A stretch of DNA of 64,000 bases from Alphaproteobacteria bacterium (GTDB taxonomy: Bacteria; Pseudomonadota; Alphaproteobacteria; RF32; CAG-239). The notes beneath the pieces were generated by a model that was given only the letters and a program-made list of their open reading frames with translations, searched no databases and was not told the DNA's origin. This document shows positions 33,401 to 36,400 of this stretch, in pieces. The translations under genes and the position numbers were made by a program. How positions within the stretch are numbered: the stretch's first letter is position 1; every line of letters starts with the position of its first letter. The stretch spans positions 6,646-70,645 of the forward strand of contig JAFSWL010000022.1 of the NCBI GenBank assembly GCA_017444525.1. Direction: 5' to 3'.

Positions 33401-36400
33401 CTAATTCCTCCTGTTACGGGCTACTTCCGGCAAACTGTAACCGGATACGTTTTTATCGACATCAATAAATGAACCGTTGCTTTTTAAATATCCGACTTCA
33501 TTATTCTGGCCGGAAACAACGCGTCCGTTGGCAGATAAGCGTCCGACATATTCGCCGTTATTTGATAGAATCGTGTTACCGATGGTATAAACATGACCAA
33601 TAATATTATTCTGTGTATCTATTGCCAATGCGTCAGTCAAAATCTTGCCGATAATCGTGCCGTTATAGTATATTTTACCATCGAATCCAACTATACCTTT
33701 TAGTGTATCATCATTACCGATAACGATATCGCCGCTGATTACTTCTCCCAAAAATTTACCGCTGCCACTGATAACCTTTCCGTCAGACAGTGTTTTCCCC
33801 GACATAATATGCTTGGTATCATAATATTCACCATTAGGAGCCGCCGTACCGACAACTTCTCCGGCGGAATTAATTACTGCACCGGACTGAAGCAAAACCA
33901 GATTGCTGCTGTTACCTCCGCCAGGTAACATAGCTGCTATTTCTTTTCTGTTAGCCCCAACAATCATACCCAGGCTATTTGTCATTCCTATTGGATTGCC
34001 GTATACATCTGACATAACTCCTTCCGGCAAAACTTCTCCGACAATTTTATCGCTATTGAGGATGTGTCCGTCCGGAATCACTTTGCCCGTAACCTCACCC
34101 CGACGATATTTTTGTTTGGAGCCATCTTTGACATTTTCAAGCTCAATTACTTTACCGGTGGAAACCACATATCCCAAATAAGCGCCGTCATATCCGCGGA
34201 CACTGCCTTGTTTGACAACACCGGCAACCAACCGACCTGTCTTATCAAACATATATCCTTTGGCATCTATTTGACCAATTTTACTACCCTTATAATCTAC
34301 GACGGATAAATCATAATTGACTTTGCCCAATAAATTACCGCTGGTATCAACTACATACGCCGGACGGATATTTTTGCCGACAATCCCGTTATAATAGCCG
34401 ATATCCCCGCTGTTTATATTGTCAACAACCGCGCCAATCTGATCGTAAACAAGTCCGTCAGGGAACAGATGTCCTATTTTATGTCCCGAAGAATCTGCCA
34501 CAATATTAATCTCCGGAACAGCGTAACCATATATTTTATTATTTCTGCCGACTAATAAATTATTGACACTGACGTATGCCGACTTGCCATCAGAAAGTGC
34601 AATATGTCCGGTTTGATCTACCGTTCCCAGAGGTTTTCCATCGAATCCGTAACCATATTTTGCATCAGAAACTCTTCCTATATATACTCCATCGACATCA
34701 TAAACATCTCCGTAAGAATCCGCACAGCCGACAGCTTCGCCGCTTTCGTTGCGCAATAAACCGCTTTCATCCAGAACTCCCATCGGCTTCCATGTTGTAG
34801 CAGACAAAACAAAATTCCTGCGGACAAGGTGTCCTTTAATCTTAGGTTCTTCCAAATCAAGAACTGTACCATCCGGATTAAGGCATCCTATCTCCTGATT
34901 ATTGACATCGCGTACATAACCATCAGCAGATGCTTCTCCTATGTAAGAACACTCATTATCATAAACACTGCCGGTCATCATAGTACGTCCGGCAAATACT
35001 CCTTCCGGTGTCCACACCGTACCGTCCGGATAAATTTTATAGCCGGTTTCTTTACCTTCGCGCCGAACCAACCCGTCTTTATCAAGTTTCAAACTGTAAT
35101 CACATCCCCAGTTAACAATATATCCTTGTCTTACACCTCTAGCCAAGATTTTGGCTCCGGACATATCAGTAATCAAACCATCTGGGCGAATTTTTCCGAT
35201 AACCTTTTGCTGGTCTGTGATTTCTCCGCGATTATTAATTGTTCCCAACAACTCTCCGGCCGGTGTAATCGGTAAGAGCAGTTTATCAATCGTGCCTCCG
35301 ATGATTCTTCTGCCTAATGCGCGAATATTACCGTTGGCATCTACAATTCCGATAATTTCCTTATCGTTACGTACCAAACCGTTTTTATCGACATAACCTA
35401 TAACATGACCCGCATCGTCATAAGCTATAAGAGCTTCATCTCCGCGAACACCTATAATATTACCGTTTCCATCGACAATATTTCCGTTTTCATCAACGTG
35501 ACCTATCATATTTCCATTAAAATCACGAACATTGCCATCTTTATTGATATAACCTATCACATTGCCGTTTTCGTCAACTACAAGTTCTTCAGCTTCACCG
35601 GTACGACCGACTATGTCACCCGAATAATCTCTGCGAATCAATTGCCCTTTTTCATCAGTTGTTCCCAAAAACGCACCATCAAAATCGTGTACAACGCCTT
35701 TTTCATCTACAAAACCCATAATTTTTCCGTTTTTATCCAAAGCAATACGTATATCACTCTTGCGACCTATGGCATTACCGTTTTCATCAATGATATTACC
35801 ATTTTCATCGGTATGTCCGATTAGATTACCGTCAAAATCATATACATTGCCGTCGGCATCAATATAACCGATAGGATTGCCATTAGCATCAACCGCTACT
35901 TCACGCTGATAACCAATGATATTTCTATTTTCATCTAGGACATTACCGTTTTCATCTACATGACCAATTACAGTACCGTTTAAATCATGAGCTATGCCGT
36001 TTTCATCTATATAACCGATGATAACACCGTTTTCATCAATAATGAGTTTGGCTTTGTCACCTACGCTGCCCAAAACAGTTACTTTCGGTTTATTACCAAT
36101 AATACTGCCGCTTTCATCAACATAGCCGATTAGATTACCGTTGTTGTCATGAACCAGATTTTCATCATCTATATAACCGATAACATTACCGTTTTCATCA
36201 AGTGCCAAATCATGCCATTCATCGCTGACACGACCTATAATTTTACCATTCTTATCGATTATATTGCCATTTTCATCAACATGACCGATTAGATTACCAT
36301 TAAAATCACGAACATTGCCATTTTCATCAACATATCCTATAATATTGCCGGCATCGTCATAAACCATCTGAGCTTGTCCGCCGCGCTTACCGATTATTTG

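What the first reader, a model, noticed from the sequence alone, without database searches (positions are those of the whole stretch)
35400..36400. Near-identical DNA repeats inside the repeat gene: substrate for in-frame recombination (CagY-like variation?)
At the DNA level the crisp part of the array reuses the same codons. The plus-strand 11-mer CCGTTTTCATC (complement GATGAAAACGG = Asp-Glu-Asn-Gly) recurs many times. An exact 25-mer (CCATTAAAATCACGAACATTGCCAT) occurs at 35514-35538 and 36297-36321, embedded in ~70-90 bp segments that are highly similar. The spacing of 783 nt is a multiple of 3, so recombination between these copies would delete or duplicate whole repeat blocks in frame. 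In H. pylori, recombination in cagY repeats tunes T4SS function, so an analogous length-variation switch is conceivable here.
Basis: partly seen in the sequence, partly recalled or inferred. Interest (0 to 1): 0.65.

Follow-up and report, generated by a model that had tools for sequence, protein, structure and literature searches.

The report
Diverged repeats in split VirB10 gene
The repeated DNA is the worn-down trace of an old protein-repeat array in one half of a split, giant secretion-machine protein (VirB10) of an uncultured rumen/gut alphaproteobacterium; the copies are too diverged, and the gene length too constant, for a CagY-style length switch, although relatives show that whole repeat modules are occasionally gained, lost or overwritten in frame.

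Summary
The stated facts hold. The exact 25-mer is at 35514 and 36297, 783 nt (261 codons) apart, and CCGTTTTCATC occurs 7 times, always as in-frame Asp-Glu-Asn-Gly. "Near-identical" is overstated: 25 nt is the longest exact repeat in the gene, and the flanks are 79% identical over 105 nt and 73% over 145 nt. TRF finds no tandem array.

The gene (33401-37642, minus strand, 1413 aa, here called "RepA") lies between virB9 and virB10. It is homologous to the N-terminal ~1500 aa of fused 2000-2470-aa VirB10 proteins of related gut Alphaproteobacteria: N-tail, one membrane helix, a PapD/ASH-like Ig domain, then 17-residue beta-hairpin (beta-flower) repeats in ~52-residue modules.

Length does not vary nearby. 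Ten conspecific assemblies give 4242 nt with 0-1 SNPs against the window. Relatives at 71-76% identity are 1411-1415 aa, with no repeat-unit indel.

Across the family, length ranges from 1039 to 1832 aa. One sister species carries a 159-nt one-module polymorphism flanked by 87-110-nt exact repeats. Another has the same two modules 97% identical. The window's 25-mer looks like a short, old conversion tract.

Verdict: slow in-frame repeat evolution is real; a CagY-like switch here is not supported.

The parts
33401..37642 (-). Repeat gene ('RepA', a working name), 1413 aa: the N-terminal half of a split giant VirB10
   Evidence: ORF. Pfam Bflower_2 E=1.2e-72, Bflower 2.7e-34, DUF3659 9.9e-29. 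Residues 1-1404 align with residues 1-1512 of the fused 2290-aa VirB10 P0038.
37523..37588 (-). Single N-terminal membrane helix (about aa 19-40) after a short basic cytoplasmic tail, a VirB10-like bitopic topology
   Evidence: Only hydrophobic segment in the protein by Kyte-Doolittle scan (best 19-residue window aa 15-33). The helix limits aa 19-40 are read from the translation. The tail and helix align with the N-terminus of the fused VirB10 P0038.
37061..37390 (-). PapD/ASH-like Ig-fold domain (aa ~85-194)
   Evidence: AF2 model has pLDDT >90 over the core. Foldseek hits at probability 1.0 to HYDIN and CEP192 ASH/PapD-like domains, target-normalised TM 0.63-0.71. Weak NCBIfam choice-of-anchor D match. 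The domain is conserved in split and fused forms, with invariant P, G, F, C, W, P, W, C, C.
35273..37003 (-). Regular 17-residue beta-hairpin repeat array (aa ~214-790)
   Evidence: 31 of the protein's 43 G..[ILVMF]G motifs lie here; 17-residue spacing is the mode over the whole protein (20 intervals). AF2 model of aa 205-830 has mean pLDDT 82.4 and is all short beta-hairpins.
35273..36397 (-). 'Crisp' part of the array: seven ~52-residue modules (three hairpins plus a long linker strand), aa ~416-790. It contains all the DNA repeats in the finding.
   Evidence: Long strands recur every 49-55 residues in the model. Direct-repeat spacings are 51, 147-162 and 315 nt. Module-by-module identities are 0.40-0.79.
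35514..35538 (+). 25-mer copy 1, inside module B1 (35435-35578, aa 689-736)
   Evidence: Exact match. It encodes part of GNVRDFNGN.
36297..36321 (+). 25-mer copy 2, inside module B2 (36218-36361, aa 428-475)
   Evidence: Exact match. B1 vs B2 is 77% nt identical, with the same codon at 25 of 33 identical residues.
33404..35272 (-). Irregular, Cys-containing hairpin region and conserved C-terminus (...GDIVIGND...NRRN)
   Evidence: Highly conserved and collinear in orthologues. No exact DNA repeat of >=14 nt lies wholly inside it; the only pair touching it is a 15-mer shared with the array, 33448/35380.
29241..33398 (-). VirB10 C-terminal half ('VirB10B'), 1385 aa: signal-peptide-like N-terminus, degenerate beta-flower repeats, and a TrbI/VirB10 domain (aa 1090-1293 = 29520-30131)
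   Evidence: Pfam TrbI E=5.5e-32 and Bflower_2 3.5e-39. NCBIfam VirB10/ComB10 domain hits. Aligns with P0038 residues 780-2148. It starts 2 nt after the RepA stop, in another frame.
37643..39331 (-). VirB9/CagX homologue with a C-terminal SPOR domain
   Evidence: Pfam CagX 2.8e-11; SPOR 3.7e-4.
39347..41292 (-). virB8 (39347-40099), a VirB7-like 62-aa lipoprotein gene (40115-40303, lipobox LSAC) and a second virB8 (40450-41292)
   Evidence: Pfam VirB8 7.4e-22 and 1.6e-11. Small ORF and its sequence. The same order is seen in L001, L002, L062 and L063.
28256..29404 (-). virB11. The ORF as listed overlaps virB10B; the likely true start is near 29233, at MSDFAVLE
   Evidence: NCBIfam VirB11 4.4e-43. 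Orthologues are 324-325 aa. N-terminal sequence.
51973..54402 (-). virB4
   Evidence: Pfam CagE_TrbE_VirB 3.9e-14.

Best explanation
The DNA repeats are the diverged nucleotide footprint of an old array of 17-residue beta-hairpin (beta-flower type) repeats. These are grouped into ~52-residue modules in RepA.

RepA is the membrane-anchored N-terminal half of a giant VirB10 that has been split into two adjacent genes (RepA and VirB10B). The genes belong to the type IV secretion system of an uncultured rumen/gut alphaproteobacterium.

The modules were duplicated before this species separated from its sister species, and have mostly diverged independently since. In the family the array changes rarely, by in-frame gain or loss of whole modules and by occasional gene conversion between modules. 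The exact 25-mer is most likely the remnant of a short conversion from module B2 into module B1 in this lineage.

In the present gene the repeats are too short and too diverged to drive frequent recombination, and the length is fixed. The array therefore acts as a structural element of fixed length, presumably a periplasmic or envelope-spanning scaffold of the secretion machine, not as a variation switch.

Shown: repeat statistics, homology, synteny, length constancy, and the family-level indel and conversion. Inferred: the direction of conversion, the fission scenario and the structural role.
For: Repeat divergence:
- Longest exact repeat 25 nt; flanks 73-81% identical.
- No TRF array.
- 10 pairs >=16 nt here, against >300 per strain in cagY (PMC2194252).

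Modules are older than the species splits:
- Orthologous modules are 66-83% identical between species. Paralogous modules are 34-79% identical within a genome.

Conversion hint:
- B1/B2 identity is 0.77-0.79 in the window but 0.60-0.66 in four sister species.
- B1 nt 37-78 is 87-90% identical to the window's B2 but 63-68% to orthologous B1.
- Same-codon use is 25/33 for B1/B2, against ~52% between orthologues.

Length constancy:
- Conspecifics: the identical protein P0121 on 8 contigs, plus P0122 and P0001; the gene is 4242 nt with 0-1 SNPs against the window.
- P0002 and P0123 are 1413 aa at 73% identity; P0003 is 1415 aa.
- L003, L004, L010 and L028 are 1411 aa, with only a 2-aa indel at aa 214-215.
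- In four other clusters all full-length listed members have one length: 1581 x14, 1370 x12, 1266 x14, 1373 x10. The shorter listed members are fragments; the two checked (P0157, P0147) are a late start call and a contig-end truncation.

Family-level change:
- Orthologue lengths range from 1039 to 1832 aa.
- A 159-nt (53-aa) one-module indel separates the 1576- and 1629-aa alleles; exact repeats of 87 and 110 nt are present there.
- In L008 the B1 and B2 modules are 97% identical.

VirB10 origin:
- Fused 2290-aa VirB10 in the order virB9-virB10-virB11.
- RepA 1-1404 aligns with P0038 1-1512; VirB10B 31-1295 aligns with P0038 780-2148.
- The N-terminal 215 residues align collinearly at 30% identity, with the same tail, helix and Ig domain.
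- The split order is conserved in L001, L002 and L063.
Against: - The conspecific assemblies are almost clonal (0-2 SNPs between any two). They test only for a fast process, and consensus assemblies hide minority variants.
- The conversion signal is modest. The codon-shuffle P is ~0.02 for the 25-mer. By my own normal approximation, 25/33 same-codon against 0.52 expected gives a binomial P of roughly 0.004, before correction for about 28 module pairs.
- The peptide VRDFNGN in B1 also occurs in distant orthologues (P0006, P0008). Retention of an ancestral state explains part of the similarity.
- The 159-nt polymorphism in the sister species rests on short-read metagenome assemblies (k119/k141). 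However, two different 1629-aa sequences carry it.
- No experiment links RepA to the secretion machine. Its role is inferred from synteny and homology.
Confidence: 0.72

Rival explanations
1. CagY-like contingency switch. Frequent recombination between the intragenic repeats makes in-frame length variants of RepA within populations, which tunes secretion or evades host or phage recognition.
For: - All 10 exact repeat pairs >=16 nt are in frame.
- The 25-mer pair is five whole modules apart, and a crossover gives an open 1152-aa product.
- The gene derives from VirB10, as cagY does.
- One sister species shows a one-module polymorphism.
- DotG and CagY are precedents for size-variable VirB10 homologues (PMC6761968; PMC2194252).
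Against: - The maximum exact repeat is 25 nt, with mismatched flanks, and there are 30-fold fewer repeat pairs than in cagY.
- No length variant was found in 10 conspecific assemblies or in relatives at 71-76% identity.
- The P0006 cluster has 97%-identical modules and a 60-nt exact repeat (L008, whose orthologue is also 1370 aa), yet all 12 full-length listed sequences are 1370 aa.
- Orthologous modules are more alike than paralogous ones, so there is no concerted evolution.
- From established knowledge: efficient RecA-dependent exchange in E. coli needs roughly 25-30 bp or more of perfect homology, and mismatch repair suppresses exchange between diverged repeats. RecA-independent slippage falls steeply with distance between repeats.
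Confidence: 0.05
2. No recombination signal at all. The 25-mer and the recurring 11-mer are simply what a conserved peptide motif (GNVRDFNGN, DENG) gives in an AT-biased genome with strong codon preferences.
For: - The repeated peptides are exact at protein level: GNVRDFNGN twice and IGHVDENGN three times.
- GAT, GAA, AAT, GTT and TTT dominate their codon families.
- 2.3% of codon shuffles reach 25 nt.
- VRDFNGN at the B1 position also occurs in distant orthologues.
Against: - The counts of >=14-, >=17- and >=20-nt repeats exceed nearly all shuffles (P <= 0.007).
- DENG uses the minority Asn codon AAC in 8 of 11 motifs, against 30% gene-wide.
- The B1/B2 pair is 13-19 points more alike in this lineage than in four sister species, while the other module pairs are not.
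Confidence: 0.2
3. Assembly artefact. The true gene has more (or near-identical) repeats that short-read assemblers collapsed, so both the apparent divergence and the constant length are misleading.
For: The window and all relatives come from metagenome assemblies (record names), and repeats are a known assembly hazard.
Against: - The same 4242-nt sequence (0-1 SNPs against the window) was recovered in independent assemblies with different naming schemes and samples.
- Modules are only 40-79% identical, far too diverged to collapse at k>=100.
- The reading frame is intact and collinear with orthologues from many studies.
Confidence: 0.03

Closest known systems
Helicobacter pylori CagY (HP0527), the repeat-bearing VirB10 homologue of the Cag T4SS
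   Same: - A very large VirB10-family protein, with a long internal repeat region upstream of the VirB10/TrbI domain.
- Repeat spacings are always in frame.
- Encoded within the T4SS gene cluster.
   Different: - CagY repeats are alpha-helical modules (PMC2581425, title and abstract). These are 17-residue beta-hairpins.
- cagY has >300 potential recombination events per strain from identical repeats >=16 bp. Deletions between 33- and 156-bp identical repeats are seen within single hosts (PMC2194252). This gene has 10 such pairs, at most 25 nt, and no length variation.
- This protein is split into two genes.
Legionella/Coxiella DotG (IcmE), a VirB10 homologue with a pentapeptide-repeat middle region
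   Same: - A conserved C-terminal TrbI domain and a variable repeat-rich upstream region.
- Size varies between species (1,000 to >1,500 aa) and sometimes within a species (1,011 vs 1,161 aa) (PMC6761968). This matches the slow, species-level length change seen here (1039-1832 aa).
   Different: - The repeat type differs: pentapeptide there, beta-flower hairpins here. Pfam reported no pentapeptide family at E <= 0.01.
- DotG belongs to a type IVB system.
- DotG is a single polypeptide.
Beta-flower proteins (Pfam PF21784/PF21785, clan CL0395; Durairaj et al. 2023)
   Same: - Strong Pfam matches: 241 bits against a 38-bit cut-off.
- The semiconserved [DNEQ]xxG hairpin-tip motif.
- Short antiparallel hairpin 'petals' (PMC10584680).
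   Different: - The described beta-flowers are small (~96-residue) closed barrels, sometimes lipoproteins, of unknown function.
- Here there are dozens of hairpins in a >1000-residue array, fused or adjacent to a T4SS core protein.
Fused giant VirB10 of related gut/rumen Alphaproteobacteria MAGs (e.g. P0038, 2290 aa)
   Same: - The same N-tail, membrane helix, PapD/ASH-like domain, beta-hairpin array and gene neighbourhood.
   Different: - P0038 is one polypeptide ending in the TrbI domain.
- In the window's clade the N-terminal part (RepA) and the TrbI-bearing part (VirB10B, with its own signal-peptide-like start) are separate genes. Together they are about 500 aa longer.

Membership tests
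CagY-type recombination-variable repeat region | Very many long identical direct DNA repeats (>=16 bp; hundreds of pairs; tracts up to ~150 bp) | tested here: not met
   10 pairs >=16 nt, longest 25 nt, against >300 potential events per strain and 33-156-bp identical repeats in cagY (PMC2194252).
CagY-type recombination-variable repeat region | All repeat spacings in frame | tested here: met
   10 of 10 are in frame. This is expected for any coding repeat read in one frame.
CagY-type recombination-variable repeat region | Size variation between strains and within populations | tested here: not met
   All conspecific assemblies give 4242 nt. Relatives at 71-76% identity are 1411-1415 aa without module indels. 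Read-level minority variants were not testable.
CagY-type recombination-variable repeat region | Length change alters T4SS function | not testable with these tools
   Needs genetics in a cultured host.
VirB10/TrbI family | C-terminal TrbI (VirB10) beta-barrel domain | tested here: not met
   RepA has no PF03743 hit. The adjacent VirB10B has it at E=5.5e-32. RepA on its own is therefore not a complete VirB10.
VirB10/TrbI family | Short cytoplasmic N-tail plus a single inner-membrane helix, encoded between virB9 and virB11 | tested here: met
   One hydrophobic segment (best window aa 15-33; helix read as aa 19-40). Gene order.
VirB10/TrbI family | Sequence homology to the N-terminal part of bona fide (TrbI-containing) VirB10 proteins | tested here: met
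   RepA 1-1404 vs P0038 1-1512, E=2e-117. The non-repeat N-terminus is collinear at 30% identity, and the Ig-domain residues are invariant across split and fused forms.
Beta-flower (PF21784/PF21785, CL0395) | Pfam match above the gathering score | tested here: met
   Bflower_2 at 241.3 bits (cut-off 38) in 11 stretches; Bflower at 118.4 bits (cut-off 25).
Beta-flower (PF21784/PF21785, CL0395) | Hairpins closing into a 4-, 5- or 6-fold shallow barrel | tested here: inconclusive
   The AF2 model is all short hairpins at pLDDT 82, but coordinates could not be inspected. Foldseek vs PDB gave no meaningful global match, TM <= 0.1.
RHS/YD-repeat proteins | Long YD-repeat shell with an RHS core and a C-terminal toxin domain | tested here: not met
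   Only one 32-residue stretch matches RHS_repeat/YD_repeat_2x. No RHS core or toxin family was reported. This looks like a cross-match between hairpin repeats.
DotG/IcmE-type VirB10 | Pentapeptide repeats in the middle region | tested here: not met
   No pentapeptide family among the Pfam hits at E <= 0.01.

The most novel reading that the evidence does not exclude
Gut and rumen Alphaproteobacteria carry a previously undescribed architectural class of T4SS core. It is a giant VirB10 whose envelope-spanning part is a >1000-residue beta-flower hairpin array. In one clade it is split into an inner-membrane-anchored half (RepA) and an outer, TrbI-bearing half. The number of ~52-residue modules is adjusted by rare in-frame unequal recombination and homogenised by gene conversion. 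This would be a third, independent invention of a repeat-expanded, length-evolving VirB10, after CagY and DotG. Low-frequency length variants may exist in populations but be hidden by consensus assemblies.
Probability: 0.35. Interest if true: 0.6.

Novelty: new variant of a known kind. Interest (0 to 1): 0.35.

Why it matters
For the finding as posed, the result is mainly a correction. In-frame coding repeats do not by themselves make a variation switch. Here the DNA copies are too diverged and the gene length too stable for one.

The context is more interesting. VirB10 is the energy-sensing protein that bridges both membranes in type IV secretion. CagY and DotG show that repeat expansion of VirB10 accompanies host-facing specialisation. 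A third repeat type (beta-flower hairpins), a natural split of VirB10 into two genes, and documented module gain, loss and conversion in a widespread but uncultured group of gut and rumen Alphaproteobacteria bear on two questions:
- what beta-flower repeats do, since no function is yet known (PMC10584680);
- whether VirB10 must be one polypeptide to work.

Tried and rejected
- Tandem Repeats Finder on 29000-38000 at minimum score 30 found nothing. The array cannot be described as a DNA tandem repeat.
- Foldseek of the 626-residue array model against PDB gave only low-probability, TM <= 0.1 hits: fascin beta-trefoils, choline-binding repeats and propellers. It was uninformative for a long multi-module chain.
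- Literature searches for VirB10 with RF32 or gut Alphaproteobacteria and for DUF3659 found nothing relevant. I found no description of this T4SS family in the held library.
- tRNA and Rfam scans of the window found nothing.
- I considered that RepA and VirB10B might be one gene broken by a frameshift error. I rejected this for three reasons: the split, with the same 2-3-nt junction, recurs in other loci (L001, L002, L063, L066); the sister-species RepA ORFs are complete to the same ...NRRN C-terminus; and VirB10B starts with its own signal-peptide-like sequence.
- I considered the length deviants P0157 (1232 aa) and P0147 (1243 aa) as repeat indels. I rejected this: they are a late start call and a contig-end truncation.
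- The plus-strand ORFs inside the gene (34829-35275, 35405-35824, 36374-36712) were treated as antisense by-products of the repetitive codon pattern. They were not pursued.
- The crude hydropathy scan found no polytopic VirB6 candidate among the unknown ORFs at 41228-51891. The Rickettsiales-like 'rvh' idea was therefore not pursued.
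Full report
**1. The observation**

The 25-mer CCATTAAAATCACGAACATTGCCAT occurs exactly twice in the 64-kb window, at 35514-35538 and 36297-36321. No further copy appears with up to 3 mismatches, and none is expected by chance. The spacing is 783 nt, or 261 codons.

CCGTTTTCATC occurs 7 times, all between 35484 and 36940, against 0.10 expected. 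All seven read Asp-Glu-Asn-Gly in the frame of the minus-strand gene. They account for 7 of the protein's 11 DENG motifs.

"Near-identical" does not hold:
- 25 nt is the longest exact repeat anywhere in 29241-37642; the next are 20, 20 and 19 nt.
- Ungapped identity around the 25-mer is 81.5% over 65 nt, 79% over 105 nt, 73% over 145 nt and 62% over 225 nt.
- The repeat families found are 60-79% identical to their reference copies.
- Tandem Repeats Finder reports nothing.

Measured as Aras et al. measured cagY (identical direct repeats >=16 bp), the gene has 10 pairs, all in frame. Twelve other 4.2-kb tiles of the window and the neighbouring virB10 gene have none.

The DNA similarity modestly exceeds what the protein repeats and codon usage give. 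In 300 synonymous-codon shuffles, 2.3% reached a 25-nt repeat. The observed numbers of >=14-, >=17- and >=20-nt repeats were reached in 0.7%, 0% and 0.7% of shuffles.

**2. What the gene is**

The repeats lie in a 1413-aa ORF on the minus strand (33401-37642). I call it RepA as a working name. It sits in a VirB-type type IV secretion cluster, all on the minus strand:
- virB4 (51973-54402);
- several signal-peptide proteins without family matches (41228-51891);
- virB8, a 62-aa lipoprotein gene with a lipobox (VirB7-like), and a second virB8;
- virB9/cagX with a SPOR domain (37643-39331);
- RepA;
- a 1385-aa VirB10 with a C-terminal TrbI domain (29241-33398);
- virB11.

RepA matches the beta-flower families far above threshold: PF21785 at 241 bits against a 38-bit cut-off, and PF21784 at 118 bits. 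It also matches DUF3659. Beta-flowers are a recently described fold of beta-hairpin "petals" with a [DNEQ]xxG tip motif and no known function (PMC10584680).

RepA has the following layout:
- a short basic N-tail and a single hydrophobic helix at about aa 19-40;
- a domain (aa ~85-194) predicted with pLDDT >90, which matches PapD/ASH-like Ig domains at Foldseek probability 1.0;
- a regular array of 17-residue hairpins from about aa 214 to 790;
- a less regular, Cys-containing hairpin region running to a conserved C-terminus.

An AlphaFold2 model of aa 205-830 (31-sequence alignment, mean pLDDT 82.4, pTM 0.61) is all short hairpins. Longer strands recur every 49-55 residues from aa ~416 on. The "crisp" region is therefore seven modules of three hairpins plus a linker. 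The two 25-mers lie at equivalent positions of modules B2 (aa 428-475) and B1 (aa 689-736), exactly five modules apart. A crossover between them would give an open 1152-aa product.

**3. RepA is half of a VirB10**

The homologue search returned two groups. The first is orthologues of RepA without a TrbI domain, about 1000-1600 aa. The second is about 80 proteins of 2015-2473 aa that combine beta-flower repeats with a C-terminal TrbI domain. Where named, they come from "Alphaproteobacteria bacterium" MAGs.

For one of the second group, P0038 (2290 aa), the locus reads virB8 - small ORF - virB8 - virB9 - P0038 - virB11, with no separate RepA.
- RepA 1-1404 aligns with P0038 1-1512 (E=2e-117).
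- The window's VirB10B 31-1295 aligns with P0038 780-2148 (E=3e-105).
- The non-repeat N-terminus (tail, helix, Ig domain, CxxC) aligns collinearly at 30% identity.
- Its key residues are invariant across 33 split and fused homologues.

The split arrangement virB9 - RepA - VirB10B - virB11 recurs in other loci (L001, L002, L063, L066). VirB10B begins with a signal-peptide-like sequence of its own. The split is therefore real and not a frameshift error.

I infer, but have not shown, that RepA provides the inner-membrane anchor and the periplasmic array, and that VirB10B provides the outer-membrane channel part.

**4. Does the array vary in length?**

Within the species, no. The identical protein (P0121) is on 8 contigs from different assemblies. 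Two further variants (P0122, P0001) differ by one residue each. In the four loci fetched, the gene is 4242 nt with 0-1 SNPs against the window, and both 25-mers are in place.

Among close relatives, no:
- P0002 and P0123 (73% identity) are 1413 aa, and P0003 (71%) is 1415 aa with only single-residue indels.
- The species representatives L003, L004, L010 and L028 (rumen MAGs, 73-76% identity) are 1411 aa. Their only gap against the window is 2 residues at aa 214-215, before the array.

In four other >=90%-identity clusters, all full-length listed members share one length: 1581 x14, 1370 x12, 1266 x14 and 1373 x10. The shorter listed members are fragments. The two I checked, P0157 and P0147, are a late start call and a contig-end truncation.

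At longer range, yes:
- Orthologues in 59 genome loci run from 1039 to 1832 aa.
- Distant orthologues lack ~51-aa blocks precisely in the crisp region.
- One cluster is polymorphic. Eight sequences have 1576 aa and two different sequences have 1629 aa. The difference is one 53-aa module.
- At DNA level this is a clean 159-nt indel. These alleles carry exact repeats of 87 and 110 nt.

Across orthologues the longest exact intragenic repeat ranges from 17 to 127 nt, and the number of >=16-nt pairs from 4 to 70. The window gene is at the low end.

The P0006 cluster is a useful control. In the species representative L008, whose orthologue is also 1370 aa, modules B1 and B2 are 97% identical and share a 60-nt exact repeat. 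All 12 full-length listed sequences of the cluster are nevertheless 1370 aa.

**5. Is there any trace of recombination in this gene?**

In general, modules are more similar to their orthologues in other species (66-83%) than to their paralogues in the same gene (34-79%). They therefore predate the species splits and are not evolving in concert.

There is one exception. B1 vs B2 is 0.77-0.79 in the window but 0.60-0.66 in all four sister species. The other module pairs show no such lineage-specific rise.
- The excess is concentrated in nt 37-78 of the module. There the window's B1 is 87-90% identical to its own B2, but 63-68% identical to orthologous B1.
- At residues identical between B1 and B2, the same codon is used in 25 of 33 cases. 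Between orthologues the figure is about 52%.

The most economical reading is a short gene-conversion tract from B2 into B1 in this lineage, with the 25-mer as its remnant.

The signal is modest after allowing for multiple pairs. The peptide VRDFNGN at the B1 position also occurs in distant orthologues. Retention of an ancestral consensus, combined with codon bias, remains a live alternative.

**6. Comparison with known systems**

- **cagY.** It has >300 potential in-frame recombination events per strain from identical repeats >=16 bp. Deletions between 156-bp and 33-bp identical repeats arise within single hosts and infected mice (PMC2194252).
- **DotG.** It has a conserved TrbI domain and a repeat-rich middle region. 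Its size ranges from 1,000 to >1,500 aa among Legionella species and sometimes differs within a species (PMC6761968).
- **This family.** It resembles DotG in tempo: species-level length change with rare intraspecies polymorphism. It resembles both in being a repeat-expanded VirB10. It differs in repeat type (beta-flower hairpins) and in being split in one clade.
- **Switch membership.** The window gene fails the two testable defining features of a CagY-type switch: an abundance of long identical repeats, and size variation among strains.

From established knowledge, not tested here: efficient homologous exchange in E. coli needs about 25-30 bp or more of uninterrupted identity, and mismatch repair suppresses exchange between diverged repeats. 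RecA-independent slippage falls off steeply with repeat distance. A 25-nt match with ~20% diverged flanks, 783 nt apart, is therefore a marginal substrate.

**7. Verdict**

The sequence facts are right, but "near-identical" is not. The repeats are the diverged DNA trace of an old hairpin array in the N-terminal half of a split giant VirB10.

In-frame module gain, loss and conversion are real in the family, but slow. In this gene there is at most one short old conversion and no length variation. The switch hypothesis is not supported. Only deep long-read data could reveal minority variants.

As posed, the finding is of modest interest. The T4SS architecture around it is a new variant of a known kind and deserves a separate look.

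Noticed in passing
window 29241-37642; L062 10001-16873: The window's two adjacent repeat genes (RepA 1413 aa and VirB10B 1385 aa) correspond to a single fused 2000-2470-aa VirB10 in many related gut and rumen Alphaproteobacteria MAGs. This looks like a natural fission of VirB10 into an inner-membrane-anchored half and a TrbI-bearing half with its own signal peptide.
   Followed up: partly
L001 10001-14890 vs L002 10001-14731: Two alleles of the RepA orthologue in one >=90%-identity cluster differ by a clean 159-nt (53-aa, one-module) in-frame indel. The alleles carry 110- and 87-nt exact intragenic repeats. It needs read-level confirmation, because both come from short-read assemblies.
   Followed up: partly
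L008 10001-14113: In this human-gut MAG, the modules orthologous to B1 and B2 are 97% identical at DNA level (same codon at 44 of 45 identical residues; 60-nt exact repeat). This is clear recent conversion or duplication between the same two modules. Even so, all 12 full-length listed sequences of the 1370-aa P0006 cluster, which matches L008 in length, are 1370 aa.
   Followed up: partly
window 37643-39331: The VirB9/CagX homologue (562 aa) carries a C-terminal SPOR (peptidoglycan-binding) domain (Pfam E=3.7e-4, 21.2 bits vs cut-off 21). As far as I know this is unusual for VirB9.
   Followed up: no
window 41228-51891: Six consecutive ORFs between virB4 and virB8 (1707, 455, 381, 518, 262 and 234 aa) have N-terminal signal-peptide-like segments but no convincing Pfam or NCBIfam match (one weak sub-threshold EAD9 hit for the 455-aa ORF, E=0.0065). 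None looks like a polytopic VirB6 in a crude hydropathy scan. The ORF calls 46365-47732 and 47614-48759 overlap by 119 nt.
   Followed up: no
window 24069-28136: A 1355-aa autotransporter (beta-domain E=1.2e-39) lies directly downstream of virB11, on the same strand as the T4SS genes.
   Followed up: no
window 40115-40303: A 62-aa ORF lies between the two virB8 genes and has a lipobox (…LVLSAC…), so it is a likely VirB7-like lipoprotein. An ORF of the same size lies at the same place in L001, L002 and L063.
   Followed up: partly
window 34829-35275, 35405-35824, 36374-36712 (+ strand): Open frames of 112-148 codons lie antisense to the repeat gene. They are most likely by-products of the repetitive, stop-poor codon pattern and not genes.
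   Followed up: no
window 33401-37642: Asn in the DENG motif is encoded by the minority codon AAC in 8 of 11 cases, although AAT is used 87:38 gene-wide. This is either a context-dependent codon preference before GG, or shared ancestry of the units.
   Followed up: no
window 28256-29404: The listed virB11 ORF (382 aa) overlaps the end of virB10B by 164 nt. Orthologues are 324-325 aa, so the true start is probably the Met near 29233 (MSDFAVLE…).
   Followed up: partly
window 7404-9665: A 753-aa protein has weak HepT-like and nucleotidyltransferase-substrate-binding matches, outside the T4SS cluster.
   Followed up: no
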